Below, piece by piece: positions 28,375 through 64,000 of a stretch of DNA of 64,000 nt (within the stretch, counting starts at the first letter, position 1; each line of letters begins with the position of its first letter). This DNA comes from Rhodoblastus sp. (GTDB lineage: Bacteria > Pseudomonadota > Alphaproteobacteria > Rhizobiales > Beijerinckiaceae). The DNA is taken from assembly GCA_020442275.1 (NCBI GenBank), contig JAGRKN010000015.1, positions 11,369 through 75,368 on the forward strand, given 5' to 3'. The notes under the pieces are model-generated. The model did not search any database, had not been told where the DNA came from, and saw only the letters and a list, made by a program, of their open reading frames with translations. A program made the translations under genes and the position numbers.

Positions 28375-28537
28375 GATGCGGGGCGGCTCGGGAGAATGGA
28401 ATGGCGATGAGTTTGGCGAAGTCTGCGGGCCGGTAAAGGCAAACCAGCGGGTGCAAAGAGACTATTTGGGGATCAATGATCGAGTAGGGATGTGCGAGCC
28501 GATGGGCATCGGCTCGCGTCGGGATATTGACGCTTGG

Positions 28538-32344: not shown

Positions 32345-32366
32345 GATGGTCCTGTCCGTGCGCAAG

Positions 32367-40791: not shown

Positions 40792-40798
40792 CGGTTGG

Positions 40799-41062
40799 TC
40801 AGGCGTGCGTCGCGAGCGCGAGCACGATCAGGGGGACGACGACGATGGCGATCTTCTTGAAGCGGTCCCAGGAAGCGCCAGGGGCGTTGATCGCGATGTA
40901 GGCGATGGCGGCGACGGCGAAGACCGAGAAGGGCGAGAAGGCGCCGGGATCGGCGAGGAGGTTGGCGAGCGTGTGAGGCAGGCCGGTGACGGTCGCGAGG
41001 ATCCAGCCGGGGAGGAGCTTGAGGGAGATCCAGGTGAGGAAAGCGTAGGCGATGATGTTCAT
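40799..41062 (-). CDS. Small integral membrane protein (87 aa, about 3 TM helices)
   Basis: Hydrophobic throughout. Preceded by an AT-richer 166-bp spacer. Confidence 0.5.
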   Translation of the reverse strand: MNIIAYAFLTWISLKLLPGWILATVTGLPHTLANLLADPGAFSPFSVFAVAAIAYIAINAPGASWDRFKKIAIVVVPLIVLALATHA

Positions 41063-41228
41063 GGTACCGACCCTTAGCAGGTTCTTCTTATCATTAGCCT
41101 AGCGTCGGCGAAGCGATGCTGGCTTGGCTTTGTTCTTGGCGCGGAGCGCTGATTTTTGCCGATCTTTTGGGAATCGACAGGCCAAAGGCCTAACGAAAAG
41201 TAAAGAAGACAGAATACGGAAAGGGGCG

Positions 41229-42242
41229 TCAGTGCGGCGACGGAGGCGACGCGTGATCGCCGTTTGAAGAGGCAGGGGAAGAAATTGGAGAATCCGGAGG
41301 TGTAGGCTTGAGCGCCTGCTTGATGAGGCCGGCGGCGCCGATCCACATGCCGACATTCGCGACGCTTGCGGCGCCGGGGATTTTGCTGAGAGGCGTGTTC
41401 TTCCAAAGGTTGTTGGTGCCGCGGAAGGCGGCGATGCCGCCACGCAGGACGGCGGGCGCGGCGAGAGCGCCGACCATCGCTGTCGCGATGACGGTACGGG
41501 TGAAGGTGGCGAGCGACGTCATGCCGCCGGCGGCGACGCCGAGGTTGGCGTAGGCGTAAGCCGAGAGTTCGGCGGCCGCGGTCGAGGCGGCGGTCATGAT
41601 GCGGCCGATCATCATGCCGGTGACGAAGGCGATGCCGGCGTAGGAGATCGCTTGAGCGACGCTTTCGGAGGAGACGGCGGTGGACATGCCGTCGATCGTG
41701 TTGGCGAGGCTGCCGACGGCGTCGGTGCAGAGCTTGGCGATCATCAGTCCTGCGGCGAGGAATGCGCCGAGCAGGGTGAATTTGATCGTCGCGTAGATGT
41801 AGCCCTTGATCGCGTTGTCGAAGATATGGCGGGTGTTCGGATAGACCGCACAATAGATGATGAAGGGGGCGAGCGCCGTGTAGATCGCCAGTCGAACGAT
41901 GACTTCGAAGACCTGCATGGCGACGACGATCATCGCGTAGGAAAAGACGAGAAGCGCGATCCAGGCGATGATTTTGACGGCGTAGGACACGGTGTAGGAG
42001 CGGGTCTCGTTGCCGCCGGCCTTCGTGTCGCCGATCTTCTTGAGTTTGGCGACCATCACGTAAATTTGGGTGTGGACCTTGCAGATCATCTGCACGACCT
42101 GCTGCTCGCCTTGTTGGACAAGCCCCGTCGCGCCGGTGATCGGCACGTTGCATTGCGAGGATGCCTGCGCGGCAGCGCTGGTCGTGGCGAGGAACGTCAG
42201 TCCGAAGACGAGCGCGATGATGACGGCGAGACGGTGCAGCAT
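41229..42242 (-). CDS. VirB6/TrbL-like T4SS inner-membrane protein
   Basis: Signal peptide, then multiple TM helices. The segment LAPFIIYCAVYPNTRHIFDNAIKGYIYATIK resembles the conserved VirB6/TrbL core (LaP.F......F..T...F..W). G/A-rich C-terminus. Confidence 0.6.
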   Translation of the reverse strand: MLHRLAVIIALVFGLTFLATTSAAAQASSQCNVPITGATGLVQQGEQQVVQMICKVHTQIYVMVAKLKKIGDTKAGGNETRSYTVSYAVKIIAWIALLVFSYAMIVVAMQVFEVIVRLAIYTALAPFIIYCAVYPNTRHIFDNAIKGYIYATIKFTLLGAFLAAGLMIAKLCTDAVGSLANTIDGMSTAVSSESVAQAISYAGIAFVTGMMIGRIMTAASTAAAELSAYAYANLGVAAGGMTSLATFTRTVIATAMVGALAAPAVLRGGIAAFRGTNNLWKNTPLSKIPGAASVANVGMWIGAAGLIKQALKPTPPDSPISSPASSNGDHASPPSPH

Positions 42243-43367: not shown

Positions 43368-43937
43368 CTATCGTGGAATCGGAACCGCGACGGTGCAATC
43401 CTTTACGCCGGAAAAATCGCCGGCGAGCGGAACATTGTCTTTGGCGCCGGCGATGAAGACCTGGCGGCGATCGGAAGAGAGAACCGCGACGGTCTGGTAG
43501 GCGGGATCGCGGTCGTGCATGAGCGACGAGATGCAGACCTTCGGGATGTCGGCGACGGCGACGATGGTCTGGTCGCGAAACAGCGCGATCTTGCCGGGGC
43601 AGACGACCGGCTGTTCGATCGCGTTCTTGCCGTTCGGGCCCATGTCGCAGCCGACGCCGTTCGAAAAGAGCGCGGAAACGCCGACCATGGTGCGGTCGTC
43701 GATCTGAAGGGCGGCGTTGAAGGTGATCGCATTGACGGCCGGCGCTTGATCCCAGACGGATTTTGTCGGGCCGGCCGGACGGCGGATCTTGGCGAAAGTC
43801 TCGGCCCAGATTTGTTCGAGGGTCGGATTGGACGGCGTGAGACCGACGGGATGCGCTGAGAGCGGCGTCTGCGCCTGCGCGAGCGACGAAATTGCGATGA
43901 ATGCGGCTGCAAGGAGCGGCGTACGAAAAATGGTCAT
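43368..43937 (-). CDS. Secreted hypothetical protein (189 aa)
   Basis: Signal peptide LLAAAFIAISSLAQAQ. Four Cys residues. ATGA overlap with the upstream UvrD-like gene. Confidence 0.6.
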   Translation of the reverse strand: MTIFRTPLLAAAFIAISSLAQAQTPLSAHPVGLTPSNPTLEQIWAETFAKIRRPAGPTKSVWDQAPAVNAITFNAALQIDDRTMVGVSALFSNGVGCDMGPNGKNAIEQPVVCPGKIALFRDQTIVAVADIPKVCISSLMHDRDPAYQTVAVLSSDRRQVFIAGAKDNVPLAGDFSGVKDCTVAVPIPR

Positions 43938-46033
43938 GCGGCGCGGTTTCCTTCGGCCTGGCTTTCGTCGAGCAGCTCGTCGATGAATTCGGACCGGTTA
44001 TACCGGGATTCCTTGACGAACGGGAGCGGCTCTTTGCGACGATCGCGGCGCTGCTGGATGTGCATACGGGGCTTCAGCGCGTGGCTGATGGTGACGGAGC
44101 GGCGCGCGCGGGTGATCGAGACATAGGCAAGGCGCCGTTCTTCCTCGATGTGTGCTTTCTGCTGCTCGTTCGACATTGCCGGGTATTCATTCGGGATCGA
44201 GGGAAAGAGTTCGGGCTCCCACGCCGGCAGGAAGACGTGGTCGAACTCGAGCCCCTTGGCGCCGTGGATCGTTCCGAGCCAGAGAGATTCGTCGGAATTC
44301 TCGTCGAAATCGTTCAGCGTCATCGCGTCGAGGAATTCGGCGAAGTCCTGTTGGTCTTGGGCTGCGGCATAGAAGTCGTCGAGGCGCTGGCGGATGGCCT
44401 TGGCCTTTTTCTCGAGCGTCCTGCGCTCGTGGGCGTCCTTGGTGAGAGCGGCCTTGTCGAGGATCGCCTGGATTTTGTCGCTCATGCCGATATCGTCTTC
44501 GATCATCTGCGTGATCGTCTTCACGGTGGCGCCGAGATCCCAGGCGTCGGTGAGCTGGGCGATGAAGCCGACGAAGGCGCGGATCTGGGTTTCCTTGTCG
44601 CCTTTGAACTTGCCGTCGTCGAGCCAACCCTCGAGGAGCGAGGTGTAAGGAAGTCCGGCAGCTTTGGCCGCCTCCATCATCTTGTCCTGGCTCGCCTTAC
44701 CGAACTTGCGGTTCTTGGCGTTGAGCGCGGTGATGAAGGCCTGGTCGTCCTGCGGGTTCATCATCAGGCGCAGGTGGGCGACGATCTGGCGGATTTCGTT
44801 GGTATCCGTGAACTTGCGGCCTGCGGTGACCGTGAACGGAATGCCGGCGGTGGCGAGCTTGTACTGGAATTTCTGGAGCGTGAGCGCGGTGCGGGAGATC
44901 ACGGCGATCTCGGCCGGCGGCACGCCTTTGGCGATGAGCTTCTGGATCTTGCCGACGATCGCGCCGCATTCCGCTTCGTCGTCGATTGGGGCGTGCGGCG
45001 TCGTAACGATCTGGACGCAGGAATCCTCGCGGCGCGTCGTAAACAGCGTCTTACCGTGGCGCGCGACGTTGTTGGCGATGATCCGGTTTGCGTGGTCGAG
45101 GATGTCCGACGAGGAGCGGAAATTCTGCTCGAGACGGATGATCGTGGCGGCCGGGCGCTTCTGGCCGAAATTCAGGATGTTCTCGACGTTGGCGGATCGG
45201 AAGGCGTAGATCGATTGATCGTCGTCGCCGACGCAGGTGATGTCGCAGCCGGCGTCTGGTGGCGACAGAAGGTCGAGCCAAGCCTCTTGCAGGGGGTTTG
45301 TGTCCTGATACTCGTCGACGAGGAGCGCGGGCCATGTGCGCTGGTGCCAGGCTGCGACGGGCGGCGCGTCGCGGAAGAGGCGCACCGTCATGGTGATGAT
45401 GTCGGTGTAATCGAGCGCGTTGGCGCGCTGGCAAGCCGCGATGTAAGCGTCGGCGATCTGGATGAAGGCGTCGTCGTACTTACCGATGATGTTCCAGGGG
45501 CCGTCGGCGAGGCATACGTCGGTCTTGTAGCGCTCGATGTCGCGAAGGATGTCGTTGGAGGCGTACTCGTTGTCGCCGATGATTTCCTTCAGGCAGTGCT
45601 TCTGGTCGTCGGCGTCGAAGACGGTGAAATGCGGATCGAGCGCCGCGAAATCGGCGTGCTGGCGGAGGATGCGCGCGCAGGTCGCGTGGAATGTGCCGAT
45701 ATCCATCGCCTGCGCGGTCGGGCCGATCATCTGCGCGAGGCGGCGCTTCATCTGGGAGGCGGCCTTGCGCGTGAAGGTCATGGCGAGGATCTGGCTCGGC
45801 AGTCGCTCGCCGGTGGCGATCTTGTAGGCGATGCGCGAGACGAGGCACTTTGTCTTTCCGGTTCCGGCGCCGGCGAGGATGAGGAGCGGCGCGGGGGGCG
45901 CGACGACAGCGGAACGCTGAACATCAGTCAGGCCCTCGAGCGCGAGGTCGAGGGCCTTATCGGGATTGAAACCGACCGCGTCCTTTTCGGATTCGAGGTC
46001 TGTCGAGGTCGTCTTTGAGAAATCGACCTTCAT
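43934..46033 (-). CDS. UvrD/Rep-family SF1 helicase, paralog 2 (699 aa)
   Basis: LILAGAGTGKTK, ILAMTFTRKAA, LLVDEYQDTNP, VGDDDQSIYAFRSA, QNFRSS, TIHGAKGLEFDHVFL, AYVSITRAR. Confidence 0.9.
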   Translation of the reverse strand: MKVDFSKTTSTDLESEKDAVGFNPDKALDLALEGLTDVQRSAVVAPPAPLLILAGAGTGKTKCLVSRIAYKIATGERLPSQILAMTFTRKAASQMKRRLAQMIGPTAQAMDIGTFHATCARILRQHADFAALDPHFTVFDADDQKHCLKEIIGDNEYASNDILRDIERYKTDVCLADGPWNIIGKYDDAFIQIADAYIAACQRANALDYTDIITMTVRLFRDAPPVAAWHQRTWPALLVDEYQDTNPLQEAWLDLLSPPDAGCDITCVGDDDQSIYAFRSANVENILNFGQKRPAATIIRLEQNFRSSSDILDHANRIIANNVARHGKTLFTTRREDSCVQIVTTPHAPIDDEAECGAIVGKIQKLIAKGVPPAEIAVISRTALTLQKFQYKLATAGIPFTVTAGRKFTDTNEIRQIVAHLRLMMNPQDDQAFITALNAKNRKFGKASQDKMMEAAKAAGLPYTSLLEGWLDDGKFKGDKETQIRAFVGFIAQLTDAWDLGATVKTITQMIEDDIGMSDKIQAILDKAALTKDAHERRTLEKKAKAIRQRLDDFYAAAQDQQDFAEFLDAMTLNDFDENSDESLWLGTIHGAKGLEFDHVFLPAWEPELFPSIPNEYPAMSNEQQKAHIEEERRLAYVSITRARRSVTISHALKPRMHIQQRRDRRKEPLPFVKESRYNRSEFIDELLDESQAEGNRAA

Positions 46034-47168: not shown

Positions 47169-50100
47169 TTACGCAAAGGCCTCTCGGCCAGCGCCACGGG
47201 TGGTGACGCGAAAGTGTTTCGACAGGGCCTGGTGGATGGTGCTGGCCCGTTCAATGAGGGTCGGCGGTTCGTTGGATTCGAGAGCCGCGAACTTCTTCTC
47301 GTTCTCGGTCGGATGACGGACCGCGCCGGTCAGGAACGCGACGTCGGCGGCCGTCATGCCCTGACGGAATTTTCCGTGCATGGGTTCGGCCTTGCCCTCA
47401 GCGACGGCGGCGAGGAACGCCGTCGCCTGCTTGGCGTCGGCGATCGGCTTGGCCGGATTGACCCAGGAGGCGACCGCGCGGGACTGCATGCCGAAGAATT
47501 CCTGACCGCGTTCGCGGCCGGAACGGTCGGTCTCGCCGGTCTTGGAATCGACGAAACGGACGCCGACGGAGGCGTTCGTCATGATTGTCGAGTGGCCGGT
47601 GTCGATCATGACCGAGCGGTTCGGCTTGAGCAGCTCGGCGCCGCCTTGTTGGTCCGAGCGCAGCATGCGGGTGGGCGAGGCGGCGATGACGGCGACCGGC
47701 TTGCCGCCGATCGGCTCGATGCGCTTGTCCTGGCCGGCGCGGGCAGCGACGAACAGAGCCGGATCGTTGGCGCGCGCGGCGGCGACCGCCACCGCCTTCG
47801 CGGGGGCCACGGCGGTTTCGAGCGCACGGATGCGGCTCTGCGTCGCGGTGGCGGCGAAGCGCGCGTTCAGCGCGTTCCAGCGGTTCACGAGCTCGCCGTC
47901 GCGTTCCGCGCCGCGCTGGCCGAGGTCGACCATTGGGGGCAGCGAAGGCGCGACCTCGATCGCGCGGCCCTGAGAGATCATCTCGGTGAGGGCGGCGCGG
48001 CTCTCGGGCGAGAGCCCTGTCTTGGCGCTGGGATCGACGACGACCATGACCTTCGCGCCGCTGTTGCGGGCGGCGTTGATGACGACCTCGCCGGTCGGAT
48101 CGTTGGTGGTCGAGATCGTCTGGCCTTTTTCGCCGGCCGTCTGAACCAGGTCGGCGATGACCTTGGCCATCTTGTCGTCGGGCGTCGAGGTGGACGAACC
48201 GATGATTGCGACGTCGGGGCGGCCGAGCTTCTCGATGAGGTCGGGATGGCCCTGGATCGCGAGCGGCTGGTTGGCGGCCTCGACAAGCGGTCCGGTGATG
48301 GCGATCGTCGAATTCTCGCCGAGATAGGCGGGATTGGCCTTGTTCGTGCCGCCGACCGAAATGGTCGGGCTCATCTGGAGGACCGAGTCGATCGCGAACT
48401 GCATGCCGAAGCCGACCTTTTTCGCCGACTGGAAGGCGGCGCGGTCGCTGCCGATCGCGGCGACCAGATCCTTCATCACCGCGGCCTTCTGGGGGTCGAG
48501 CGCGCGGTACTTGTCGCCGGTGAGCGTCGCAGCGTCGACGAGGTCGCGGATCGAAATCGGAGTTTCGAGGCCGTGCTTGACGCGCAGCGCCTTGGCGGCG
48601 CCGGCGATGCGTTCGGCGTCCTTTGTGCTCGTCAGGAAGGCGAGGGCGAGGCGGCCGAGCTGGCTGGCGGCCGGCTTGGTCATCTGCTGTTCGACATCGC
48701 GGCCGAGGTAGATAGAGCGAGCCGATCCCTGGACGACGCTGTCGCGTGCCTTCGGAGCGCCGATACGCGCAAGCGCGTAGGCGCGGTCGGCGGCCATCGG
48801 CTTGCCGTCCTCGTCGTACACGGTGGTCTTCTTGTCGAAGTCCATCGAGCGGCGGGCCGCTTGGCAGGCGTTGAAGTCCTTGTCGGTGAGGCCGAAGACG
48901 GTCGTCTGGGTCGTCAGCGACTGGAGCGCCTGCCAGCTGATAGTGCGCTTCATGCGATCATATTGATCGGTGAGGCGCTGCTTCTGATCGGGGCTCTTGG
49001 CGGCCTCGATCTTGTTGAGGAGCGAGGACGGCGGCTTCGGATCGATGAGGAGCAGGCTGCCGGCCTTGTTCTGCTGCGCGAGGTATTTCGCGCGCGAGGA
49101 GTAGAGCGGGATCTTTTCGCCGTTCTCGGCGACGATGTTGTAGGCGAGCCAGCCGCGGTTGCTCTTGTCGTCGACGAGCGCGCCGCCGGCATTGAGACGC
49201 AGCATGTCCTTCGGATCGAGCGAAGCCTCGACGCGTAGGACCGACATGCCGGCGGCCTGGGCGGCGGCCAGGATGGCGGCCGCCGAGCGCGAGTGATCGT
49301 TCTTGTTGCCGGCGTTGGGATCGGCGATCGCGATCAGCGGCGTGCGATCCGAGGTCTTGACCTTGGCGTTCTGCGCCGCGACGTCCTTGACGGTGCTCGT
49401 GATGACGTCGGGGTGCTTGAAGTATTTCGCGCCCTCGAGGCCGATCGCGTCCATCTGGAGACGGGAAGCGTTCGGACCGAGGAAGGCGTGCGCGGTCACG
49501 GCGAGATAGCCCAGCGTCGGCGGCGCTTCGCGCAGGGAGACGCCGTTCTGGTCGCGCGGCGTCTGGCCGAAGGCGTTGAGGGCCTTGTCGGCGCGGTTCT
49601 TGCCGGCGCGGAAGGCCTCCCAGTAGGGGTGGATGCGGTCGGCGGTCTTGCCGTTCGGGCCTTCGGTGATGATGTAGCGCGGCGTCTCGAGCAGCGTGCG
49701 GGTCGGCATGCGCATGGTCTGGCTGTGCGACAGGGAAGTCTGCACGCCTTCGAGCAGGGCGCCGACGGTTTCGCGCGAAGGGACCTGATCGCCGCGGTTG
49801 ATCGCGACGAAATCGAGCAGGCGGGCGATGACGGTGGCCTCGGCGACCGAGCTGGCGACGATGTCGAGCTGGTCGAGGCCACGGATGCGGGTCGCATTGC
49901 CGCCGGAGAGCGCCTGGGCGATCTGGTCGGCGCGCTCGCGCGCCGTGGCGCCAGTGATCATGGCGCCGGCGACCGCCTTGTAGCGGGCGAATTCCGGCGA
50001 TTGGATGATCGCGTCGGCTTGATCCATCACGGAAGCGAAGCGCTTCGTGCGGTTGCGGTCGGCCTCGGACATTTCGACCGGGTGGCCGCTGGCGGCCGCG

Positions 50101-51074
50101 TCGATCTGGATCTGGATGATGCGGCGTTCGGCGGGCGTGAACTCGTAGTCGTTGATGAGCGCTGCGGTCGCCGCGCGCGTGACGACGAACTCGACGTCGC
50201 GGTCGCTGGAGGCGCGCTGAGGCGCATATTCGATCTGGGTGCCCGAGCGCAGGATCTGCATGGTGAGGCGGGCGCGCTCGGCCTCGGTGAGCTGCTCGGA
50301 ATCGAGCGCTTCGAGCTCGGCTTCGGCGGTTTCGAGGCGCTTGCGCTCGGCGTCGTTGAGGAGCGTAGGATCGGCGGCCGAAAGGCGGTTGAGTTCGGCG
50401 GCGACCGCTTCGCGACCGGCGGCCGCGTAGGAGAAGGCGAGGACGTCGGTGACCTTCGCCGTCTCGTTGTAGATGACGCGGACCGACTGGTCGTAGAGCG
50501 CCTGCAGCTCTTCGGCGCTGCGGTCGAAGAACGGCGTCGTGTCGCCGCCGGCGCGCTCGACGAGCGAGGCGATGGTGGCGCGGCGCTCGCCGCCGAGGCC
50601 GGTGGCCTGGTCGAGGGACTGCGTGCGCAGGTTTTCCAGCATCGCGTCGGGATTGATGGCGTTGTTGGAACGGGCAGCGTCGTTGAGGTACGAGCTGACC
50701 ATCGACTCGACGTGCGAGAAGGCGATGAGCGCGTCGGTCTGATTGTCCGTCATCGGATTGACGGAAGCGGCGCTGCGCGATTCCGTGCGCAGCGCGCCGC
50801 GAACGTCGGCGATGCGGTCCTGGCGGCGGATCGCGGCGGCGCCCTTCTCGACGATCTCATTGAGCGCGCTCCAGTAGAGAGCGCGGGCCTCGTTGTTCGG
50901 CGAGCCCAGCATGACTCCGGCGTCCCTCAGGTGGTCCTTCGCCAGATCCTTGGGTTCGCCGTGGCGCGGGCGGTCCGGATTGTGCAGGATGGAGTCATTG
51001 CCGATGAAGACAGGTACGCGGTCGGCGGCAGTGGTGAGATCGAGATAATCGAAATCGTAAGCGCGAGCTGGCAT
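47169..51074 (-). CDS. Very large multidomain (polyvalent-type) protein, 1301 aa, with a DprA/SLOG-like Rossmannoid segment
   Basis: Uninterrupted ORF with SD GGAGA. The segment VAIIGSSTSTPDDKMAKVIADLVQTAGEKGQTISTTNDPTGEVVINAARNSGAKVMVVVDPS resembles the DprA/SLOG nucleotide-binding fold. The rest is unrecognised, with coiled-coil-like stretches. Confidence 0.75.
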   Translation of the reverse strand: MPARAYDFDYLDLTTAADRVPVFIGNDSILHNPDRPRHGEPKDLAKDHLRDAGVMLGSPNNEARALYWSALNEIVEKGAAAIRRQDRIADVRGALRTESRSAASVNPMTDNQTDALIAFSHVESMVSSYLNDAARSNNAINPDAMLENLRTQSLDQATGLGGERRATIASLVERAGGDTTPFFDRSAEELQALYDQSVRVIYNETAKVTDVLAFSYAAAGREAVAAELNRLSAADPTLLNDAERKRLETAEAELEALDSEQLTEAERARLTMQILRSGTQIEYAPQRASSDRDVEFVVTRAATAALINDYEFTPAERRIIQIQIDAAASGHPVEMSEADRNRTKRFASVMDQADAIIQSPEFARYKAVAGAMITGATARERADQIAQALSGGNATRIRGLDQLDIVASSVAEATVIARLLDFVAINRGDQVPSRETVGALLEGVQTSLSHSQTMRMPTRTLLETPRYIITEGPNGKTADRIHPYWEAFRAGKNRADKALNAFGQTPRDQNGVSLREAPPTLGYLAVTAHAFLGPNASRLQMDAIGLEGAKYFKHPDVITSTVKDVAAQNAKVKTSDRTPLIAIADPNAGNKNDHSRSAAAILAAAQAAGMSVLRVEASLDPKDMLRLNAGGALVDDKSNRGWLAYNIVAENGEKIPLYSSRAKYLAQQNKAGSLLLIDPKPPSSLLNKIEAAKSPDQKQRLTDQYDRMKRTISWQALQSLTTQTTVFGLTDKDFNACQAARRSMDFDKKTTVYDEDGKPMAADRAYALARIGAPKARDSVVQGSARSIYLGRDVEQQMTKPAASQLGRLALAFLTSTKDAERIAGAAKALRVKHGLETPISIRDLVDAATLTGDKYRALDPQKAAVMKDLVAAIGSDRAAFQSAKKVGFGMQFAIDSVLQMSPTISVGGTNKANPAYLGENSTIAITGPLVEAANQPLAIQGHPDLIEKLGRPDVAIIGSSTSTPDDKMAKVIADLVQTAGEKGQTISTTNDPTGEVVINAARNSGAKVMVVVDPSAKTGLSPESRAALTEMISQGRAIEVAPSLPPMVDLGQRGAERDGELVNRWNALNARFAATATQSRIRALETAVAPAKAVAVAAARANDPALFVAARAGQDKRIEPIGGKPVAVIAASPTRMLRSDQQGGAELLKPNRSVMIDTGHSTIMTNASVGVRFVDSKTGETDRSGRERGQEFFGMQSRAVASWVNPAKPIADAKQATAFLAAVAEGKAEPMHGKFRQGMTAADVAFLTGAVRHPTENEKKFAALESNEPPTLIERASTIHQALSKHFRVTTRGAGREAFA

Positions 51075-58002: not shown

Positions 58003-59880
58003 TCAGGCGGCCGAGGAGATCGGCGCGCCGTCGGCCTGGACGAGGTTGAGTTCGGTGAGGAAGGGCGAAGGACCGTAGCTGCGATCGTAGAGCAGCCAGG
58101 CGTCGCCCGCCGCGCGTGTGATCGTGACAAAGGCGATCTTGCGTTCTTCCTCGAAATCGGCGGGCGAGACATTGCGGCCGGTGCGCGGGAACTTGCCTTT
58201 GTCCCAGCCCGGGCTGATCACGATTGGCGCCTGCAGTCCCTTCATTCCGTGCATGGTCGAGATCAGAACCGCGTCCGGCAGGTTGTCGGGATCGATCAGA
58301 TCGTTCTGGGCCATTTCGAGGACGACCTTGAGGTCGGGCTGCTGGCGGGCATGAAGGACGAGCGACTGGTAGAGGCGCCAGAACTTGGTTTTCGGCGCAG
58401 ACGGCAGGTTGTTGACCTGCTTCTCGATGTTCGTCTTGTCGATGACCATCTGGATGATTTCATCCGGCGCGAGGATTTTGGCCTCGGTGGTGATCGCGTC
58501 GACCATCGCGACGAACGCCTTGAGGTCGGGCGTCGCGTCGGGATAGCGCTGAACGTTGCGGATGGCGGTCGTCAGCATGGGCAGGTTCTGCATGCGTGCC
58601 TGCAGGTAGAGCGAGTTGACGACGTCGGTGCCCAGCATCCGGTCGGCGATGGTGATGAAGGCCGCGTCATCCCATGAATTGACGATCATGCGGATCCAGG
58701 CGACGAGGCGCTGGATGTATTCCGACGAATTGGCGTCGGGCATGAAAATGTGGACGGGGATGCTGGCGGCCGCGAGGTCGGCGGCGATCCGGTTGCACTC
58801 CTCGTTGGTGCGACCGAGGATCGCGACGGAATTCCAGGGCAGCTCGATGTCGCGAGAATAGATGATCTGCTCCATGGCGCGGCGCATGCCGATGGCGGCG
58901 TCGTAACCGACCGCGTGGAGCGCGCCGATCTTGTTGTTGACCGAGCGCAGGATCTTCTTGTGGCGGTTCTGGTTGTGCTCGATCATCCCAGCGGCGCGGT
59001 TGAGGACGTCCGCCGGGCAACGATAGTTTTCCTTGAGCGTGACGATCTCGGCGTTCGGCCAGGCGGTGCCGAAGGTGAGGATCGCTTCGACGCGTGCGCC
59101 ACGGAACGCATAAATCGACTGATCGTCGTCACCGACGCAGGTGAGCTGGCAGTTGGGGCCGACCATGAGTCGGATCCATTCCTGCTGCGCGCGATCGGTG
59201 TCCTGATATTCGTCGACCGTGATCAGGCGGAATTGGTCGCGGTACTTGGCGAGGACGTCGGGCTGCGTGCGCAGCATGTGGATGGTCTCGCAGATGAGGT
59301 CGCCATAGTCGTAGCAGTTCATGGCGGCGAGATCGCGCATGTAGGCGCGGATCAGCGCGAGATCGGAGGCCATCGGGCGAATGGCCGCGCGCGGCCAGTT
59401 GGCCGGGTCGTCGCTGATGAGCGCGCCGGAACCCTTGATCTGATCGATCGTGCGCAGGATCTGGCTGACGCGGCGGTCGTCGGGCGCGACGCGCTCGAGG
59501 CGCGCGATGACGCTCGACATCACGCGGCGGGCCTCTTCGGTCTGGATGACGGTGAATGTGTCGCGCAGCGCGTGATAGGAGGGGTTCTCGCGCAGAATAC
59601 GCGAGCAGATGGCGTGGAAGGTGCCGATCCAGAGCTTCGAGGGGTCGAGATCGGGACGCGCAAGCGCGGTCGAGATGCGCTGGCGCAGTTCGTTGGCGGC
59701 CTTGCGCGTGAAGGTGACGGAGAGCAACGCGTCGGGCTTGTAGCCAAGCGTGTCGCAGGCATAGACGGCCTTCGCCGTCAGGACGTGCGTTTTGCCGGTC
59801 CCGGCGGTCGAGAGGACCAGGACGGGACGGTCCATTGTCGTGACAGCTGTGAGTTGTTCGGGATTGAGGCTGTCGAGCAT
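58003..59880 (-). CDS. UvrD/Rep-family SF1 helicase, paralog 3 (625 aa)
   Basis: ATG 59880 (MLDSLNPEQLTAV). LVLSTAGTGKTH, LSVTFTRKAA, ITVDEYQDTDR, VGDDDQSIYAFRGA, ENYRC, TMHGMKGLQ, AFVTITRAA. Confidence 0.9.
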   Translation of the reverse strand: MLDSLNPEQLTAVTTMDRPVLVLSTAGTGKTHVLTAKAVYACDTLGYKPDALLSVTFTRKAANELRQRISTALARPDLDPSKLWIGTFHAICSRILRENPSYHALRDTFTVIQTEEARRVMSSVIARLERVAPDDRRVSQILRTIDQIKGSGALISDDPANWPRAAIRPMASDLALIRAYMRDLAAMNCYDYGDLICETIHMLRTQPDVLAKYRDQFRLITVDEYQDTDRAQQEWIRLMVGPNCQLTCVGDDDQSIYAFRGARVEAILTFGTAWPNAEIVTLKENYRCPADVLNRAAGMIEHNQNRHKKILRSVNNKIGALHAVGYDAAIGMRRAMEQIIYSRDIELPWNSVAILGRTNEECNRIAADLAAASIPVHIFMPDANSSEYIQRLVAWIRMIVNSWDDAAFITIADRMLGTDVVNSLYLQARMQNLPMLTTAIRNVQRYPDATPDLKAFVAMVDAITTEAKILAPDEIIQMVIDKTNIEKQVNNLPSAPKTKFWRLYQSLVLHARQQPDLKVVLEMAQNDLIDPDNLPDAVLISTMHGMKGLQAPIVISPGWDKGKFPRTGRNVSPADFEEERKIAFVTITRAAGDAWLLYDRSYGPSPFLTELNLVQADGAPISSAA

Positions 59881-59936
59881 GGGGCAAGCCTTTAGGGGTT
59901 GGCGACAGGAAGAAAAGCAAACTGGGTGGAAGGCTG

Positions 59937-59964
59937 AAAATGGAATGCGGCCGGAAGGCCGCAT
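59937..59964 (-). terminator. Weak terminator or hairpin after virD4
   Basis: Perfect 8-bp stem ATGCGGCC (59945-52) with GGCCGCAT (59957-64), GGAA loop. On the minus strand it is followed by UCCAUUUU. Confidence 0.4.
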
Positions 59965-59972: not shown

Positions 59973-62900
59973 TCATGCATCTTCGAATTCGACCGCGGGC
60001 TCCTCGGTGACGATCTCGTAGGCCTGCTGGGGCGTTGGGTCGTGAACCGCGTCAGCGGCAGTGGCTTGGGCTCGTCGAGCCTCGGTTTGGGAAATATTGA
60101 ATTTGATTTCGTCGACTCGGCCCATGCGCTGGTGATCCGGGATGGTCTGACGCGCGACAGGGCCCTTGCCGCGCGAGCGCACGAGCGGTGCGATGAGCGG
60201 ATCGTTGAAGAAGAATGGCGCAAGCAGCTTCATCGGGCGGTTGAGGAAGCCCTGCACGAGCACGATGACCTGACCGGGCGGCAGCGCGGCGATGTCTTCG
60301 TGGCGGAGCATCTTCACTGCTTCGAGGTTTTCGGAGGAGCTCCACGCGAGCGGATTGGCGGCCTTCGAGAAGCCTTCTTGCGTCGATTTGGAATGACGCA
60401 TGATGGTCGTTTCGCCGACCATTTCGATGATTTGCTTCGTGGTGTCTGCATTGTTCTGCTGCAGAATGATCTTCACAGCCGTCGTGCTGTTGATCACGCT
60501 GACGTCGGCCTTCGAGTAGATGAGTTCGAGCTGCCCGTAGTCCTGCGCGTAAAAGGCGTAGGAGGTCTGCTTCGACCGGCCGAGGTCGGGGCCTCTGAGA
60601 ACCGATTCCGACTTTGGGAGCTTGGCGAACTCGTCGAGGACGAAGAGAACAGGGAAGGGACCGAGAATGCGGTCGGTCTTCTCGTTGTGTTCGTAAGGGC
60701 CGAACGAAATCAGAGAGTTCGAGAGGACTTCGTAGAGCAGCGCTGTGATGGTGGCGAATGCCGCCGCCTCGGCCTGGTTGACGCAGACGTAGAGCGTCAG
60801 CGGCAACCAGCTGTTGGGCTCGTAGAAAAGGCGCTCGAATTCTTCGGACGCCCATTTGAAATGCTCGAGGCCCTTGTCGTCGACGTAGCGCGTGCGTCCG
60901 GGATTGAGATAGTTCTGGTCGTTCGGGGGCAGGCGCGTGCGCGCGAGGATTTCCTGCTTGAGGACGCCACGCATGTCGTCGGGGGTGAAATCGGTTGCCG
61001 ACGTGCGCTGCTTGACGGCCTCGTTCTTGAAGGGCAGGAGCGCTTGGTCCATCGTGCCGAGCACGCCGGACCGTTCCTTGTCCGCCATGTTGACGAGGGA
61101 CGAAAGTTCGAGGAAGGCGCGCGGCGAGGCGAGCCTCTTGTTGTCTTCGCCGGGCTTGATGATTTCGCAGAGCTTGCGAATCCAGTCGCCGAGCCGGTCG
61201 GTCGAGGGCGGTGGTCCGCCGTAGGACTCCTGCTCTTGCTCGACGGGTTTAGTGTTTTCGAGCTGGGCGTAGGCGATCCAGTCCGACAGCATCGGCAGCG
61301 ACGGCTCTTTGCCGCGCCAGTCTTCGGGCAGTTCTTCCTGGAACTTCGTGTTGTCGGCGTTGTCGCCGAAGACGGTGATGAGGTAGTGGCAGAAGCCCGT
61401 AAAGGCGGCGCGGCCCTTATTGACGAAGTACGTGTCGCCGCCGCCCTTCGGGTCGGGGATCATCACCTTGGCGATCGAGTCGATGTAGGTGTCGCGATTG
61501 GGGCCCCGCGGAGGGACGAGGAGCGGCGACAGGAAGTTGAAGCGTGGATAAAATACAGAGCGCTCCGGATTTTGCTCATCGATAGTATCGACTTTTGACC
61601 AGTCAAGCATATATACAGATGAAACGGTCTCGCGGTGCGCGCCCGTGGCTGCTCTGATTTCAGGCTTGGGATCGTTGACTATAAGTGAGACGCGATCAGC
61701 AGTAATAATTGTCGGAATAACAAAAGCAGCGGTATTATGTGTTACCGTAAAATCATCGAGCAAGTACTGATGATCGCCGTCTATTATGATGCCGAAATAT
61801 GGGCCGTCGCCGATCGGCTCGATTTCGAAGCCGACGTTGGTGACGTCTTTATTGATCCGTCGCGACTCTGCGTGACGGCGGAAGAGTTTGACAGGTATGC
61901 GGTCGACGTCGCCGCTGATGAAAAGGCGCCAGTAGACCGTGTTCTTGATGATACGAGGGGTTGGGTAGGCGGCAAGGCCAAGGGACCGCGCGACGAACGC
62001 GATGTCATTGGCGAGCGTTTCGGAGGCCGTGCAGAAGTCGTATCCGCGACCTGCGGGGTCGTATGAGCCATCGGTGTCGATCAGGCCAGCCAAGAGGGCT
62101 AGGCGGTCATCGGCGCTGGCGGTCTTGTAATCATGCGGGATGAACTTTTGGCAGCAGGGCACGTCGAGGCCGTAATCGCGTAGCTCGGCTAGCAGACTGT
62201 TGGCGCGCCAACGCTCTCCGGGGGTCGCGTTGCCTGCGGTGACGAAATACGAGCCGGAGCGATTGCCTTCTTGATGTTCTTCGCGGATCTGGAGGCCGCG
62301 CGCCTCGGCCTCGGCGTAGATTTCGGCGACAAGTTCGTTGTCCGCGGTATGCAGACCGGCTTTTTTGTTAGTCGTTCCGTCGCCGAGCAGTAGGCCAAGG
62401 CGATAAGGATCGATCTTGAGGCAAGCGTTCGACTGGAAGTCGACGGCAGCGCGCCATTGCTTGTAGAGCGACTTCTGGGTTGGCGACCACGCGAGGTAGT
62501 CCTCGACGGAGGTGAATTTGATGTGACCGCGAAGTGGATTGCGAGCGCGTCGGCGCGGCTCTTTGGAATTGCGCAGCGAAAGGATGTGATAGCCGTTGCA
62601 AATCCAGGAGCGGCCCTTGTTGGGCGTTACGCGATAGAGGGGGCCGTAGCCAGTGCTGGTCGAGAGGATGCGGCGCGGCTTGCTGTCGGGGCCCATCAGA
62701 AGGTCGCCGACAACGAGAGCGCCGGTGCGCTTGGTCGTGCCGTCGAACATCAGGACGGGTTCGTCCGGATGGAGGCATTTTCCTGTGCCTGGTGGCGCGA
62801 GACACAAAGAAGAAAGCGTCTCGATCATCTGTACCATCTGGCCTTTACGCTCGCGACCCTGCCAGCGGCCAAGTGTCATCAAGCGTCCGCCAGCAATTCC

Positions 62901-63359
62901 GACTTGCTTTCTGGCCTCCATTTGCTTGAGCGCGTCGTCATCGCACCAGTCGGCATAGCCGGCCTTCAGGATGATCTTCTTGTGCTTGTTGAAGAACTGC
63001 GGCGTAAAACCGAGAAATGAGCCGAAAAGCAACCAACCCATCAGCTTGGTTATCGGCGTGACGTCGAAATTTCCATTCGCGAAGCCGGCGAAATAGCCGG
63101 ACGCGATGAACATGTCGTGGAAATTGAGCGTGACGACGTCCGTGTTGTAGCGGACGAGCAGAGCCCAGGCGCTCGACAGCGAGAAGCGGTGCGTGACGAT
63201 GCGATGGAAGAGCGCTTCGTTGAGCGGGGCGTACAGCGGAAAAAGAATGGCGAGGAGGAGCGCGAGCGACAGCGACAGGTACAGGATCCGGTAGTGCCGG
63301 TCCCGTTCCTCCGTCATATGGCTGGGCAGCGTCTCTCGCGAGAAGGCATTGAACGTCAT
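59973..63359 (-). CDS. virD4: Type IV coupling protein (VirD4/TraG family) interrupted in-frame by an intein
   Basis: Two N-terminal TM helices. The Walker A is split: LAPPGTGK | intein | TAAFVIPTII. Then SLIVNDPKPE, Walker B VLFVLDEFAKL, and AQDYGQLELIYSKADVSVINSTTAVKIILQQNNADTTKQIIEMVGETT. Confidence 0.9.
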   Translation of the reverse strand: MTFNAFSRETLPSHMTEERDRHYRILYLSLSLALLLAILFPLYAPLNEALFHRIVTHRFSLSSAWALLVRYNTDVVTLNFHDMFIASGYFAGFANGNFDVTPITKLMGWLLFGSFLGFTPQFFNKHKKIILKAGYADWCDDDALKQMEARKQVGIAGGRLMTLGRWQGRERKGQMVQMIETLSSLCLAPPGTGKCLHPDEPVLMFDGTTKRTGALVVGDLLMGPDSKPRRILSTSTGYGPLYRVTPNKGRSWICNGYHILSLRNSKEPRRRARNPLRGHIKFTSVEDYLAWSPTQKSLYKQWRAAVDFQSNACLKIDPYRLGLLLGDGTTNKKAGLHTADNELVAEIYAEAEARGLQIREEHQEGNRSGSYFVTAGNATPGERWRANSLLAELRDYGLDVPCCQKFIPHDYKTASADDRLALLAGLIDTDGSYDPAGRGYDFCTASETLANDIAFVARSLGLAAYPTPRIIKNTVYWRLFISGDVDRIPVKLFRRHAESRRINKDVTNVGFEIEPIGDGPYFGIIIDGDHQYLLDDFTVTHNTAAFVIPTIITADRVSLIVNDPKPEIRAATGAHRETVSSVYMLDWSKVDTIDEQNPERSVFYPRFNFLSPLLVPPRGPNRDTYIDSIAKVMIPDPKGGGDTYFVNKGRAAFTGFCHYLITVFGDNADNTKFQEELPEDWRGKEPSLPMLSDWIAYAQLENTKPVEQEQESYGGPPPSTDRLGDWIRKLCEIIKPGEDNKRLASPRAFLELSSLVNMADKERSGVLGTMDQALLPFKNEAVKQRTSATDFTPDDMRGVLKQEILARTRLPPNDQNYLNPGRTRYVDDKGLEHFKWASEEFERLFYEPNSWLPLTLYVCVNQAEAAAFATITALLYEVLSNSLISFGPYEHNEKTDRILGPFPVLFVLDEFAKLPKSESVLRGPDLGRSKQTSYAFYAQDYGQLELIYSKADVSVINSTTAVKIILQQNNADTTKQIIEMVGETTIMRHSKSTQEGFSKAANPLAWSSSENLEAVKMLRHEDIAALPPGQVIVLVQGFLNRPMKLLAPFFFNDPLIAPLVRSRGKGPVARQTIPDHQRMGRVDEIKFNISQTEARRAQATAADAVHDPTPQQAYEIVTEEPAVEFEDA
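61734..62777 (-). mobile_element. Class-1 intein (348 aa) with LAGLIDADG homing-endonuclease domain, inserted in the T4CP P-loop
   Basis: Residues 195-542 of the ORF. It starts CLHPDEPVLMFDG (Cys1). Block B-like ICNGYHIL. LAGLIDADG motifs LGLLLGDGTT and LLAGLIDTDGS. C-terminal YFGIIIDGDHQYLLDDFTVTHN is followed by Thr (+1). Confidence 0.85.
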
Positions 63360-63379: not shown

Positions 63380-64000
63380 TCAGAGGATTTCAGAGATGTA
63401 GCGGCCGCGGTCGTCCCGCTTGACCTGGATGACGCGAAGTTTCGCGAGCATCTGGGCGCGCAGCGCCTCGGGATCGACGTGCGAATTGATGCCGGCGTGG
63501 GCGTTGGCCATCTCGATGAGGCGGATGAAGGTGCCGATGGCCTCGTCGCCGCTTTCGGCGTGCACGGTGGTCATGAACGAGCCGTGGCCGCTGTTCATGA
63601 GATCCCAGACGATCGCGGCGTTTTGCGTGGAAAGCTCGCCGGCGAGCACGACGTCGGGCGTCATGCGCGTGATCATCTGGCGGACACCGGGGTAATCGAG
63701 CGCGTTACCTTGGTCCGTGCGGCTGAGAACGATGTGCACGCGGTTCGGGGCAGGAACGATCAGCTCGCGTGTGTCTTCCACTGTGACGAAGCGCTTGTGA
63801 TGGCTGATCGATTTGATCAGACGATTGATGAGCGTCGTCTTGCCGCTGCCGGTCGATCCGGAAACGAGGATGTGGTCGCCGCGCGTCAGCGAATTGGCGA
63901 CGCGCGCATAGGCGTCGTTCGGATCGGTTTCCTTCGTGAAAAGGCTCTGTAGCGGCGAGCGTAGCGCGACGCCGCGCTTGACGTCGTAGTCGGAGAGTTC
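63380..64000 (-). CDS. virB11: VirB11/TrbB-family T4SS ATPase, 5' end beyond the window
   Basis: The frame is open to base 64000; the listed ORF starts at an internal GTG 63781. My translation of 63782-64000 gives ...LTRGDHILVSGSTGSGKTTLINRLI..RFVTVEDTRELIV. Downstream are RMTPDVVLAGELS and NSGHGSFMTTVHA. Confidence 0.85.
   Translation of the reverse strand, partial: ELSDYDVKRGVALRSPLQSLFTKETDPNDAYARVANSLTRGDHILVSGSTGSGKTTLINRLIKSISHHKRFVTVEDTRELIVPAPNRVHIVLSRTDQGNALDYPGVRQMITRMTPDVVLAGELSTQNAAIVWDLMNSGHGSFMTTVHAESGDEAIGTFIRLIEMANAHAGINSHVDPEALRAQMLAKLRVIQVKRDDRGRYISEIL

What the first reader, a model, noticed from the sequence alone, without database searches (positions are those of the whole stretch)
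61734..62777. Full-length LAGLIDADG intein splitting the Walker A P-loop of the VirD4/TraG coupling protein
**Seen.** The 1128-aa T4CP ORF reads ...LCLAPPGTGK | CLHPDEPVLMFDG ... LGLLLGDGTT ... LLAGLIDTDGS ... YFGIIIDGDHQYLLDDFTVTHN | TAAFVIPTII. Deleting residues 195-542 (348 aa) joins GTGK to T. That regenerates a canonical GxxGxGKT Walker A, followed by the VIPT segment typical of VirD4/TraG.

**Established.** Class-1 inteins start with Cys/Ser, end in His-Asn and are followed by Cys/Ser/Thr. They often carry a two-motif LAGLIDADG endonuclease, and they favour P-loops of essential ATPases.

**Inference.** The conjugative ATPase of this element can only work after protein splicing. An intein inside a gene that is itself moved by conjugation is repeatedly brought next to intein-free alleles, which is an ideal homing route. 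I do not recall a described intein at this T4CP site. That needs a database check.
Basis: partly seen in the sequence, partly recalled or inferred. Interest (0 to 1): 0.85.

Follow-up and report, generated by a model that had tools for sequence, protein, structure and literature searches.

The report
Intein splitting a conjugation coupling ATPase
A self-splicing, potentially mobile protein insert (an intein carrying a LAGLIDADG homing endonuclease) sits exactly inside the ATP-binding loop of the coupling ATPase of a conjugative element; this is a textbook kind of intein at a textbook kind of site, in a host protein where I found no published description of one.

Summary
ORF 59973..63359 (-) encodes an 1128-aa VirD4/TraG-type coupling protein (T4CP). 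Residues 195-542 (window 61734..62777) are a 348-aa insert between Lys and Thr of the Walker A motif (GTGK|T).

The insert matches Pfam Hint and LAGLIDADG models above their cut-offs. Its model (pLDDT 95) superposes on PI-SceI (Foldseek E 1e-22). It keeps Cys1, the block-B His, His-Asn, Thr+1, both LAGLIDADG Asp residues and the Lys that aligns with PI-SceI K301.

Intein-free homologues (73% identical, in fully syntenic elements) align without a gap across the junction. Eleven other members of this T4CP family carry an intein at the same site, three with a decayed endonuclease. Presence or absence differs between alleles 91% identical.

The kind is well known. K|T is the "classic" P-loop intein site, and the intein belongs to a large clade found in Walker A loops of many ATPases. 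Inteins in the secretion ATPases VirB4 and VirB11 are published; I found none for T4CPs. Splicing and homing remain inferred.

In passing, different inteins occupy the same site in TraD of IncC resistance plasmids and in an actinobacterial plasmid T4CP.

Verdict: new member of a known kind, moderate interest.

The parts
59973..63359 (-). Whole precursor gene: VirD4/TraG-type type IV coupling protein (T4CP), 1128 aa plus stop
   Evidence: ORF. Pfam T4SS-DNA_transf E 1.1e-34, TraG-D_C 8.8e-19, TrwB_AAD_bind 2.3e-14; the gene lies directly downstream of VirB8, VirB9/CagX, VirB10/TrbI and VirB11 genes.
62778..63359 (-). N-extein, residues 1-194. Includes the hydrophobic N-terminal region and ends in the first half of Walker A (APPGTGK, 62778..62798)
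   Evidence: A188-K194 are invariant or nearly invariant across 18 family members.
61734..62777 (-). Intein, 348 aa, class 1, PI-SceI-like, with a nested LAGLIDADG endonuclease
   Evidence: Absent from P0002, P0003, P0005, P0008, P0031 and P0081.
62445..62777 (-). N-terminal splicing (HINT) region, approximate boundary. Holds Cys1 (62775..62777) and block B N-G-Y-H64 (62586..62597)
   Evidence: translation. H64 is conserved in at least 90% of the 47-sequence alignment A2. Beta-rich secondary structure in the model.
61878..62444 (-). LAGLIDADG homing-endonuclease domain, approximate boundaries. Motif 1 PYRLGLLLGDG at 62376..62408 (Asp133); motif 2 RLALLAGLIDTDG at 62067..62105 (Asp236); Lys211 at 62145..62147
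   Evidence: LAGLIDADG_3, Hom_end. D236 invariant, D133 and K211 at least 90% conserved; alignment to PI-SceI residues 206-454, with K211 opposite PI-SceI K301; fold matches to PI-SceI, PI-PfuI and I-DmoI.
61734..61877 (-). C-terminal splicing region. Block F YFGIIIDGDHQYLL and block G TVTHN; His347-Asn348 at 61734..61739
   Evidence: N348 is conserved in at least 90% of A2.
59976..61733 (-). C-extein, residues 543-1128. Starts with Thr+1 (61731..61733), which is both the splice nucleophile and the Walker A Thr. Walker B LFVLDEFAKL at 60618..60647
   Evidence: T543, D909, E910, F911, A912 and K913 are invariant in alignment A1.
63380..64000 (-). Context: 3' part of the upstream VirB11-type ATPase gene (runs off the window). 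Its own Walker A GSTGSGKT is uninterrupted
   Evidence: translation. (372-aa T2SSE gene on the source contig).

Best explanation
The gene encodes a type IV coupling protein (T4CP) precursor whose ATP-binding P-loop is interrupted, between the Walker A Lys194 and Thr543, by a 348-aa class 1 intein of the PI-SceI type.

**Proposed mechanism (inferred from the established class 1 pathway).**
1. After translation, Cys195 undergoes an N-S acyl shift.
2. The hydroxyl of Thr543 attacks the thioester and forms a branched intermediate.
3. Asn542, helped by His541, cyclises and releases the intein.
4. An O-N shift joins Lys194 to Thr543. This yields a 780-aa T4CP with an intact GPPGTGKT loop.

Only the spliced product can bind and hydrolyse ATP, so transfer by this element should depend on splicing.

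**The free intein.** It is a two-motif LAGLIDADG endonuclease. It is expected to cut intein-less T4CP alleles at the DNA spanning the GK|T codons. Repair from the intein-bearing copy would then convert them (homing).

**Origin.** The intein belongs to a very large clade that occupies Walker A loops of many unrelated ATPases. It has spread patchily through one alphaproteobacterial T4CP family.

**Shown versus inferred.** Shown: anatomy, fold, catalytic residues, colinearity of intein-free alleles, recurrence at the same site, and presence/absence polymorphism. Inferred: actual splicing, endonuclease activity and current mobility.
For: **Identity of the insert.**
- Pfam Hint, LAGLIDADG_3 and Hom_end all score above their gathering cut-offs.
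- PI-SceI is the best solved relative by sequence and by fold (E 1e-22, TM 0.78-0.82). The model has pLDDT 95.4.
- Catalytic residues present: Cys1, block-B His64, block-F Asp/His, His347-Asn348 and Thr+1. The endonuclease keeps Asp133, Asp236 and Lys211.

**Precise insertion.**
- Six intein-free family members read APPGTGK|TAxF with no gap.
- The closest ones (73% amino-acid, 75% nucleotide identity) sit in elements with the same gene order: VirB4, VirB8, VirB9, VirB10, VirB11, T4CP, UvrD, TopA, Rad52.

**Recurrence and mobility signature.**
- Eleven further family members carry an intein at the identical site.
- P0012 (intein-plus) has an extein 91% identical to the intein-free Microvirga protein P0008.
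- Copies with an intact endonuclease are 51-62% identical to this intein, while their exteins are 42-54% identical.
- Three copies (P0034, P0036, P0078) have lost the endonuclease motifs, as expected late in a homing cycle.

**Not an artefact.** The identical 1128-aa protein (P0226) is recorded on 52 contigs and under three NCBI accessions.

**Host gene intact.** Walker B and all family-invariant residues are present in the extein.

**Clade.** The nearest non-T4CP relatives (35-55% identity) lie in the Walker A of AAA, DnaB, RecA, ResIII helicase, PhoH, thymidylate kinase, thymidine kinase, PilT-like and FtsK proteins.
Against: - No experiment shows splicing or DNA cleavage.
- Retention of catalytic residues does not guarantee endonuclease activity.
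- No intein copy more than 62% identical to this one was found in a different T4CP allele, so there is no trace of a recent homing event involving this copy.
- Intein GC and GC3 (0.60 and 0.73) equal those of the extein (0.57-0.60 and 0.76-0.78). This indicates long residence rather than recent arrival.
- No relaxase or oriT was identified in the window, so 'conjugative' rests on the T4SS/T4CP gene set alone.
Confidence: 0.88

Rival explanations
1. The intein still splices, but its endonuclease is no longer active or no longer finds targets. It would be a fixed, vertically inherited passenger of this element, not a currently homing one.
For: The closest intein in another T4CP allele is only 62% identical. 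Composition is fully ameliorated to the host gene. Three family members show that endonuclease decay does happen at this site. The syntenic sister elements are intein-free, although one was recovered in the same study (L005).
Against: Both LAGLIDADG Asp residues and the Lys aligning with PI-SceI K301 are kept. The endonuclease domain folds confidently. In pairs with an intact endonuclease the intein is about as conserved as the extein (P0011/P0012: 86% against 81%). The decayed pair P0034/P0036 shows 51% against 81%. This argues for purifying selection on intact copies.
Confidence: 0.3
2. The intein works as a conditional post-translational switch. Splicing, and therefore T4CP activity and conjugation, would respond to a signal such as redox state, temperature, metals or substrate DNA.
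For: Only by analogy. Conditional splicing is documented for P-loop or ATPase inteins in RadA (PMC4513877) and mycobacterial DnaB (PMC6195587), both listed. The precursor has Cys1 plus further cysteines (intein Cys60, 118, 207, 208, 248 and extein Cys at -9; read directly) that could form regulatory disulfides.
Against: Nothing in the sequence data tests this. Closely related elements manage without the intein, and alleles 91% identical differ in its presence. The element therefore does not need the intein.
Confidence: 0.1
3. The insert is a dead, non-splicing remnant and the T4CP gene is inactivated (a pseudogene in frame), or the insert is an assembly or annotation artefact.
For: Splicing is untested. 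Most sequences come from metagenome assemblies.
Against: The 3387-nt frame is open. All splicing residues and all family-invariant extein residues are intact. The identical protein occurs on 52 contigs from several sources. Eleven diverged homologues from independent data sets have the same architecture.
Confidence: 0.03

Closest known systems
PI-SceI, the Saccharomyces cerevisiae VMA1 intein (PDB 1vde, 1lws, 1ef0)
   Same: Best match by sequence (E 1.2e-10) and by fold (E 1e-22, TM about 0.8). Same bipartite HINT plus two-motif LAGLIDADG architecture. Same Pfam family Hom_end_hint. The endonuclease and C-terminal half aligns: LLGDG, AGLIDxDG, the Lys opposite PI-SceI K301, DHQ(F/Y)LL and (V/T)HN. 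Both sit in an ATPase.
   Different: 348 aa against 454 aa, so the extra DNA-recognition region of PI-SceI domain I must be much reduced. About 20% identity. Bacterial mobile-element host. The +1 residue is Thr rather than Cys (the PI-SceI +1 residue is from my own knowledge). The insertion site is the Walker A K|T.
'Classic' P-loop inteins: TerL1-a of mycobacteriophage terminases, DnaB-b, MCM-a, RFC-a
   Same: Insertion between the invariant Walker A Lys and the nucleophilic Thr/Ser is called the classic P-loop intein insertion (PMC5050341). PMC4760082 describes P-loop inteins in many ATPases. The nearest non-T4CP relatives of this intein sit at the same position in AAA, DnaB, ResIII, thymidylate kinase and other P-loop proteins. 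Transfer between P-loops of unrelated proteins has been proposed (PMC10710043).
   Different: The host protein is a T4CP (VirD4/TraG/TraD). It is not in the tables in the main text of PMC4760082, nor in any paper my searches found.
Inteins in other type IV secretion ATPases: bacterial VirB4 (5) and archaeal VirB11 (21), Table 3 of PMC4760082
   Same: Inteins in ATPases of the same secretion or conjugation machinery. The authors discuss them as possible routes of horizontal intein transfer.
   Different: A different ATPase of the system. In this window the neighbouring VirB11 Walker A is uninterrupted.
Group II intron Ll.LtrB in the relaxase gene ltrB of the conjugative plasmid pRS01 (PMC7293003)
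   Same: A self-splicing mobile element interrupts a gene essential for conjugation. Splicing is needed to make the transfer protein, and the relaxase in turn initiates transfer of the plasmid that carries the intron (abstract).
   Different: Splicing is at the RNA level, mobility is by retrohoming, and the host gene is the relaxase rather than the coupling ATPase.

Membership tests
Class 1 intein (HINT splicing domain) | N-terminal nucleophile Cys or Ser at position 1 | tested here: met
   Cys195 of the precursor, 62775..62777. Ten of the 11 other family inteins start with Cys and one (P0041) with Ser.
Class 1 intein (HINT splicing domain) | Block B histidine (TxxH-type motif) | tested here: met
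   N61-G-Y-H64 at 62586..62597. H64 is conserved in at least 90% of 47 aligned inteins.
Class 1 intein (HINT splicing domain) | C-terminal His-Asn followed by Cys, Ser or Thr at +1 | tested here: met
   TVTHN|T: H541-N542 and T543. All 12 T4CP inteins end in HN|T.
Class 1 intein (HINT splicing domain) | HINT fold, and profile match above the curated threshold | tested here: met
   PF05203 scores 52.7 bits against a cut-off of 32.1, spanning residues 5-347. Model pLDDT 95.4. Foldseek matches PI-SceI, the TliVMA intein and Prp8 inteins.
Class 1 intein (HINT splicing domain) | In-frame insert in a conserved host motif, absent from orthologues whose exteins are colinear | tested here: met
   Alignment A1: six intein-free members read APPGTGK|TAxF with no gap. 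The elements are syntenic.
Class 1 intein (HINT splicing domain) | Autocatalytic protein splicing | not testable with these tools
   Requires expression and detection of ligated exteins.
Class 3 intein (WCT type), considered and rejected for the window intein | No Cys/Ser at position 1; Trp two residues after the block-B His; Cys in block F; Thr before the His-Asn | tested here: not met
   The window intein has Cys1, Leu (not Trp) two residues after the block-B His (NGYHIL), and Asp (not Cys) in block F (IIIDGDH). In contrast, the IncC TraD and Brachybacterium inteins start with Ala and show HLW/HIW, a block-F Cys and THN.
LAGLIDADG homing endonuclease (intein-borne, PI-SceI-like) | Two LAGLIDADG motifs, each ending in the catalytic acidic residue | tested here: met
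   LGLLLGD133G and LAGLIDTD236G. D236 is invariant and D133 at least 90% conserved in A2. Aligned to the two PI-SceI motifs.
LAGLIDADG homing endonuclease (intein-borne, PI-SceI-like) | Profile matches above threshold, and the alpha-beta-beta-alpha-beta-beta-alpha fold | tested here: met
   LAGLIDADG_3 scores 32.1 bits against 22.5; Hom_end scores 26.6 against 21.1. Foldseek hits to PI-SceI, PI-PfuI, I-DmoI and I-Tsp061I.
LAGLIDADG homing endonuclease (intein-borne, PI-SceI-like) | Evolutionary signature of mobility (patchy distribution; intein and extein histories differ) | tested here: inconclusive
   For: presence or absence differs between exteins 91% identical. Intein identity exceeds extein identity for copies with an intact endonuclease, and decayed copies exist. 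Against: no near-identical intein was found in diverged alleles, and no tree reconciliation was done.
LAGLIDADG homing endonuclease (intein-borne, PI-SceI-like) | Site-specific cleavage of the intein-less allele | not testable with these tools
   Needs purified protein and target DNA. Candidate target sequences from L004, L005 and L006 are printed.
Type IV coupling protein (VirD4/TraG/TraD) | T4CP domain profiles | tested here: met
   PF02534 E 1.1e-34, PF12696 E 8.8e-19, PF10412 E 2.3e-14. NCBIfam VirD4-like models hit, but below their equivalog cut-offs.
Type IV coupling protein (VirD4/TraG/TraD) | Walker A and Walker B motifs | tested here: met
   Walker A is restored only after in-silico splicing: GPPGTGK+T. 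Walker B is LFVLDEFAKL, with D909 and E910 invariant.
Type IV coupling protein (VirD4/TraG/TraD) | Encoded with a type IV secretion gene set | tested here: met
   VirB4, VirB8, CagX/VirB9, TrbI/VirB10 and VirB11 genes lie immediately upstream on the source contig.
Type IV coupling protein (VirD4/TraG/TraD) | Partner relaxase and oriT (conjugative DNA transfer rather than effector secretion) | not tested
   No relaxase family was seen among the 20 large ORFs scanned. Several large ORFs have no Pfam hit.

The most novel reading that the evidence does not exclude
T4CP inteins may be more than passengers. Splicing in the P-loop could act as a conditional post-translational gate on conjugation. Conjugation would in turn be the vehicle that brings the intein to intein-less alleles, making a self-reinforcing mobile element nested in a mobile element. 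Because unrelated inteins occupy the same K|T site in the TraD of IncC multidrug-resistance plasmids carried by cultured Enterobacterales, this could be tested directly. Splicing inhibitors could then block transfer of those plasmids.
Probability: 0.1. Interest if true: 0.7.

Novelty: new member of a known kind. Interest (0 to 1): 0.38.

Why it matters
**A new host protein for a known element.** The finding adds the coupling ATPase of conjugation to the list of intein hosts. The site is used repeatedly: at least 12 clusters in one alphaproteobacterial T4CP family, plus different inteins at the same K|T position in IncC TraD and in an actinobacterial plasmid T4CP.

**Splicing may be an obligatory step in transfer.** If splicing is required for transfer, it is an unrecognised step in the spread of some mobile elements, including clinically relevant IncC plasmids. 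That would make it a possible control point or drug target.

**Annotation.** These proteins are filed in public databases as plain T4CPs, or receive no listed gene at all. Size- or domain-based T4CP typing may therefore misread them.

**Evolution.** It is a clean natural system for studying a mobile element nested in a mobile element. It parallels the Ll.LtrB intron in a relaxase gene.

Tried and rejected
**Second intein in the window.**
- tblastn of the intein against all 64 kb gave only the self-hit.
- Pfam scans of 20 other large ORFs gave no Hint or intein family at E <= 0.001. These included the classic intein hosts DnaE, ribonucleotide reductase, UvrD-type and other helicases.

**Foreign composition.** A GC dip to 0.50-0.52 at 61450-61900 looked like a foreign segment. 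Over the whole intein, however, GC and GC3 (0.601 and 0.733) equal those of the exteins. I therefore make no compositional claim.

**Incomplete word-index search.** The word-indexed homologue search with the intein alone did not return the T4CP copies at all. It is incomplete for long proteins. The exhaustive representative search did return them (P0033, P0259, P0260).

**Literature.** Searches for an intein in VirD4, TraG, TraD, T4CP or a coupling protein found only engineered-intein papers and the survey PMC4760082. Its supplementary tables are not held. A low-count VirD4 entry there cannot be excluded.

**GTDB representative genomes.** Only one intein-bearing member turned up (a Phreatobacter MAG). 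The Microvirga, Camelimonas, Sphingomonas and other loci are intein-free.

**Class 3 intein.** Considered for the window copy and rejected on motifs.
Full report
**1. The observation**

ORF 59973..63359 on the minus strand encodes 1128 aa. Residues 195-542 map exactly to window 61734..62777. They read CLHPDEPVLMFDG...DDFTVTHN and are followed by TAAFVIPT. Removing them in silico leaves a 780-aa protein reading LAPPGTGKTAAFVIPT, a canonical Walker A motif.

**2. Is it an intein?**

- The excised 348 aa match Pfam Hom_end_hint over residues 5-347 (E 7.7e-14; 52.7 bits against a cut-off of 32.1).
- They also match LAGLIDADG_3 (32.1 bits against 22.5) and Hom_end (26.6 against 21.1).
- The flanks match T4SS-DNA_transf, TraG-D_C and TrwB_AAD_bind.
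- The best solved relative by sequence is PI-SceI, at E 1.2e-10. The alignment covers both LAGLIDADG motifs, a Lys opposite PI-SceI K301, and the block F/G string DHQ(F/Y)LL...(V/T)HN.
- An AlphaFold2 model built on a 47-sequence alignment has pLDDT 95.4 and pTM 0.93.
- Foldseek places the model on PI-SceI (E 9.8e-23, TM 0.78-0.82). Next come the TliVMA intein, PI-PfuI, Prp8 mini-inteins and the free-standing LAGLIDADG enzymes I-DmoI and I-Tsp061I.

The splicing residues are all present: Cys1, block B N-G-Y-His64, block F Asp/His, His347-Asn348 and Thr+1. The endonuclease keeps Asp133 and Asp236 at the ends of the two LAGLIDADG motifs, plus Lys211. All of these are invariant or at least 90% conserved in the alignment. 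By motifs it is a class 1 intein, not class 3.

**3. Is the insertion precise, and is the host gene real?**

- In an 18-member alignment of the T4CP family, six intein-free proteins read APPGTGK|TAxF(V/I)(I/V)P with no gap at the junction.
- The closest intein-free proteins are P0002 and P0003 (779 aa, 73% identical; the spliced gene is 75% identical at the DNA level).
- They lie in elements with the same gene order as the window's contig: VirB4, VirB8, CagX/VirB9, TrbI/VirB10, VirB11, T4CP, UvrD helicase, topoisomerase, Rad52-like, and a roughly 1300-aa ORF.
- One such intein-free contig (L005) comes from the same study as a contig 99.99% identical to the window.
- The extein keeps Walker B (LFVLDEFAKL) and every family-invariant residue.
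- The window protein is identical to P0226. That protein is recorded on 52 contigs and under NCBI accessions HRY01654.1, MCB1533376.1 and MCC2106097.1, as a plain 'type IV secretory system conjugative DNA transfer family protein [Rhodoblastus sp.]'.

An assembly artefact or a decaying pseudogene is therefore very unlikely. The host is probably an alphaproteobacterium of the Hyphomicrobiales.

**4. Recurrence and signs of mobility**

- Eleven more clusters of this T4CP family carry an intein at exactly GK|T. Ten start with Cys, one with Ser, and all end HN|T.
- Eight of them have a full endonuclease (352-355 aa).
- Three (P0034, P0036, P0078; 282-298 aa) have lost the LAGLIDADG motifs.
- Presence is patchy. 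The window's nearest relatives lack the intein. P0012 (intein-plus) has an extein 91% identical to the intein-free Microvirga protein P0008.
- Copies with an intact endonuclease are 51-62% identical to the window intein, although their exteins are only 42-54% identical.
- Within close pairs, intact inteins are about as conserved as the exteins (P0011/P0012: 86% against 81%). The decayed pair shows 51% against 81%.

This is the pattern expected from a homing cycle: invasion, fixation, endonuclease decay. There are limits. No near-identical copy in a diverged allele was found. The intein's GC and GC3 equal those of its host gene. So this copy is an old resident, and current mobility is unproven.

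**5. Where the intein comes from**

- An exhaustive search of 1.84 billion representative proteins finds 3252 clusters at E <= 1e-30 and 9262 at E <= 1e-10.
- The best non-self hits include further T4CPs (P0259, P0260, P0033).
- They also include AAA ATPases (one with two such inteins), DnaB and ResIII/SNF2 helicases.
- Reading the sequences shows these relatives inside Walker A loops. Examples are GVGK|C...HN|T in P0106 (host family not identified; its first 14 intein residues are identical to the window's), TGGGK|C...HN|T in a ResIII helicase, GTAK|C...HN|T in an AAA_5 protein, GSGK|C...HN|S in a thymidylate kinase and GEGK|C...HN|T in DnaB.
- The same is true for RecA, PhoH, thymidine kinase, PilT-like and FtsK proteins, though in some of these the insertion lies a few residues earlier in the loop.

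The window intein is therefore one member of a large, promiscuous clade of P-loop inteins.

**6. Comparison with what is known**

- Novikova et al. document the bias of inteins for P-loop ATPases. They list inteins in bacterial VirB4 (5) and archaeal VirB11 (21), noting secretion systems as possible transfer routes (PMC4760082).
- Transfer between P-loops of unrelated proteins has been proposed from Anaeramoeba (PMC10710043).
- The logic 'a self-splicing element in a conjugation gene, spread by the conjugation it permits' is established at the RNA level for the Ll.LtrB group II intron in the pRS01 relaxase gene (PMC7293003).
- I found no paper describing an intein in a T4CP. The supplementary tables of PMC4760082 and InBase could not be consulted.

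Verdict on novelty: a new member (a new host protein) of a thoroughly known kind.

**7. Mechanism**

The precursor should splice by the standard class 1 route:
1. Cys195 undergoes an N-S shift.
2. Thr543 carries out trans-esterification.
3. Asn542 cyclises.
4. An O-N shift joins the exteins.

This restores the GKT loop. The Walker A Lys of coupling proteins is essential for conjugation (established knowledge for TrwB-type T4CPs; from memory, not tested here). A loop split by 348 residues cannot form the phosphate-binding turn, so transfer by this element should depend on splicing. The released intein is a PI-SceI-like endonuclease expected to target intein-less alleles at the K|T codons. The intein-less alleles L004-L006 share 22-24 of the central 30 nucleotides with the window's extein flanks. 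These steps are inferred, not shown.

**8. Side observations**

- The same K|T site is occupied by different inteins in two other T4CP lineages. Both start with Ala and show H(L/I)W in block B, a block-F Cys and THN, which is the class 3 pattern as I read the motifs.
- One is the 990-aa TraD of the IncC plasmid pKAZ5. The identical 1107-bp intein is in five more Enterobacterales plasmids, disrupted in one of them. In the five RefSeq records of the six, the PLSDB gene table lists no gene there.
- The other is an unannotated 1009-aa T4CP ORF on Brachybacterium plasmid pCBA3105-1.
- The window element also encodes its own DnaE, DnaN, class II ribonucleotide reductase, several helicases, a topoisomerase and a Rad52-like protein.

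**9. Score**

The finding is real and correctly interpreted, and T4CP appears to be an unrecorded host. However, the kind of element, its site preference and even its presence in type IV secretion ATPases are established. Interest is moderate (0.38). It would rise if splicing proved to gate conjugation, which the IncC plasmids make testable.

Noticed in passing
L002 3034-4140 (KR827394.1 plasmid pKAZ5, traD 27934-30906); also NZ_AP019688.1, NZ_AP019818.1, NZ_AP028316.1, NZ_AP028319.1 at 40669-41775, and a partial copy in NZ_AP028311.1: The TraD coupling protein of IncC multidrug-resistance plasmids from Klebsiella, Enterobacter, Citrobacter and E. coli carries a 369-aa LAGLIDADG intein at the same Walker A site (GSGK|AQPL...VVTHN|T). 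It starts with Ala and shows HLW, a block-F Cys and THN, which looks class 3. The DNA is 100% identical in all six records and is interrupted in the E. coli one. In the five RefSeq records the PLSDB table lists no gene there. The intein-free TraD is 624 aa.
   Followed up: partly
L003 1925-4954 (NZ_CP086255.1, Brachybacterium halotolerans pCBA3105-1); intein about 2516-3682: An unannotated 1009-aa T4CP ORF (TraG-D_C E 5e-32) holds a 389-aa Ala1 LAGLIDADG intein, again at GK|T (RTGK|AVESS...IVTHN|TTS). The coupling-protein P-loop is thus an intein site in Actinomycetota too.
   Followed up: partly
window 3006-4124, 8583-11945, 15653-19708, 24001-25587, 28538-32365, 37898-39658, 43934-46033, 58003-59964 (all minus strand): The element next to the type IV secretion genes encodes its own DnaN clamp, class II ribonucleotide reductase and DnaE polymerase. 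It also encodes a Strawberry-notch-like AAA_34 helicase, RecD-like, ResIII/DEAD and two UvrD helicases, plus a topoisomerase and a Rad52-like protein on the contig. This is an unusually replication-rich conjugative element. None of these classic intein hosts carries an intein.
   Followed up: partly
window 47169-51074 (-): A 1301-aa ORF with no Pfam hit at E <= 0.001 is conserved in position in the syntenic intein-free elements (1273-1275 aa in L004 and L006). It could be the missing relaxase or primase, or something new.
   Followed up: no
window 15653-19708 (-): The DnaE-like protein (1351 aa) has about 590 residues ahead of the Pol III alpha NTPase domain, with no PHP or other Pfam hit at E <= 0.001. 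This is about 300 aa more than I would expect for DnaE (from memory).
   Followed up: no
window 61450-61900 and 62800-63250: Local GC dips (0.50-0.52 and 0.54-0.56, against about 0.60-0.64 around them) lie at the intein C-terminus/C-extein junction and in the N-extein. Whole-intein GC is not deviant. The cause could be amino-acid composition or an old co-conversion tract; I did not resolve it.
   Followed up: partly
P0258 (1718 aa, from the representative library): An AAA-family ATPase with two stretches matching this intein (50% identity), so apparently two inteins of the same clade in one protein.
   Followed up: no
window 63380-64000 (-): the ORF listing reports a 133-aa ORF at 63380..63781, but the frame is open to the window end. 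It is the 3' part of a 372-aa VirB11-type ATPase with an intact GSTGSGKT loop.
   Followed up: yes
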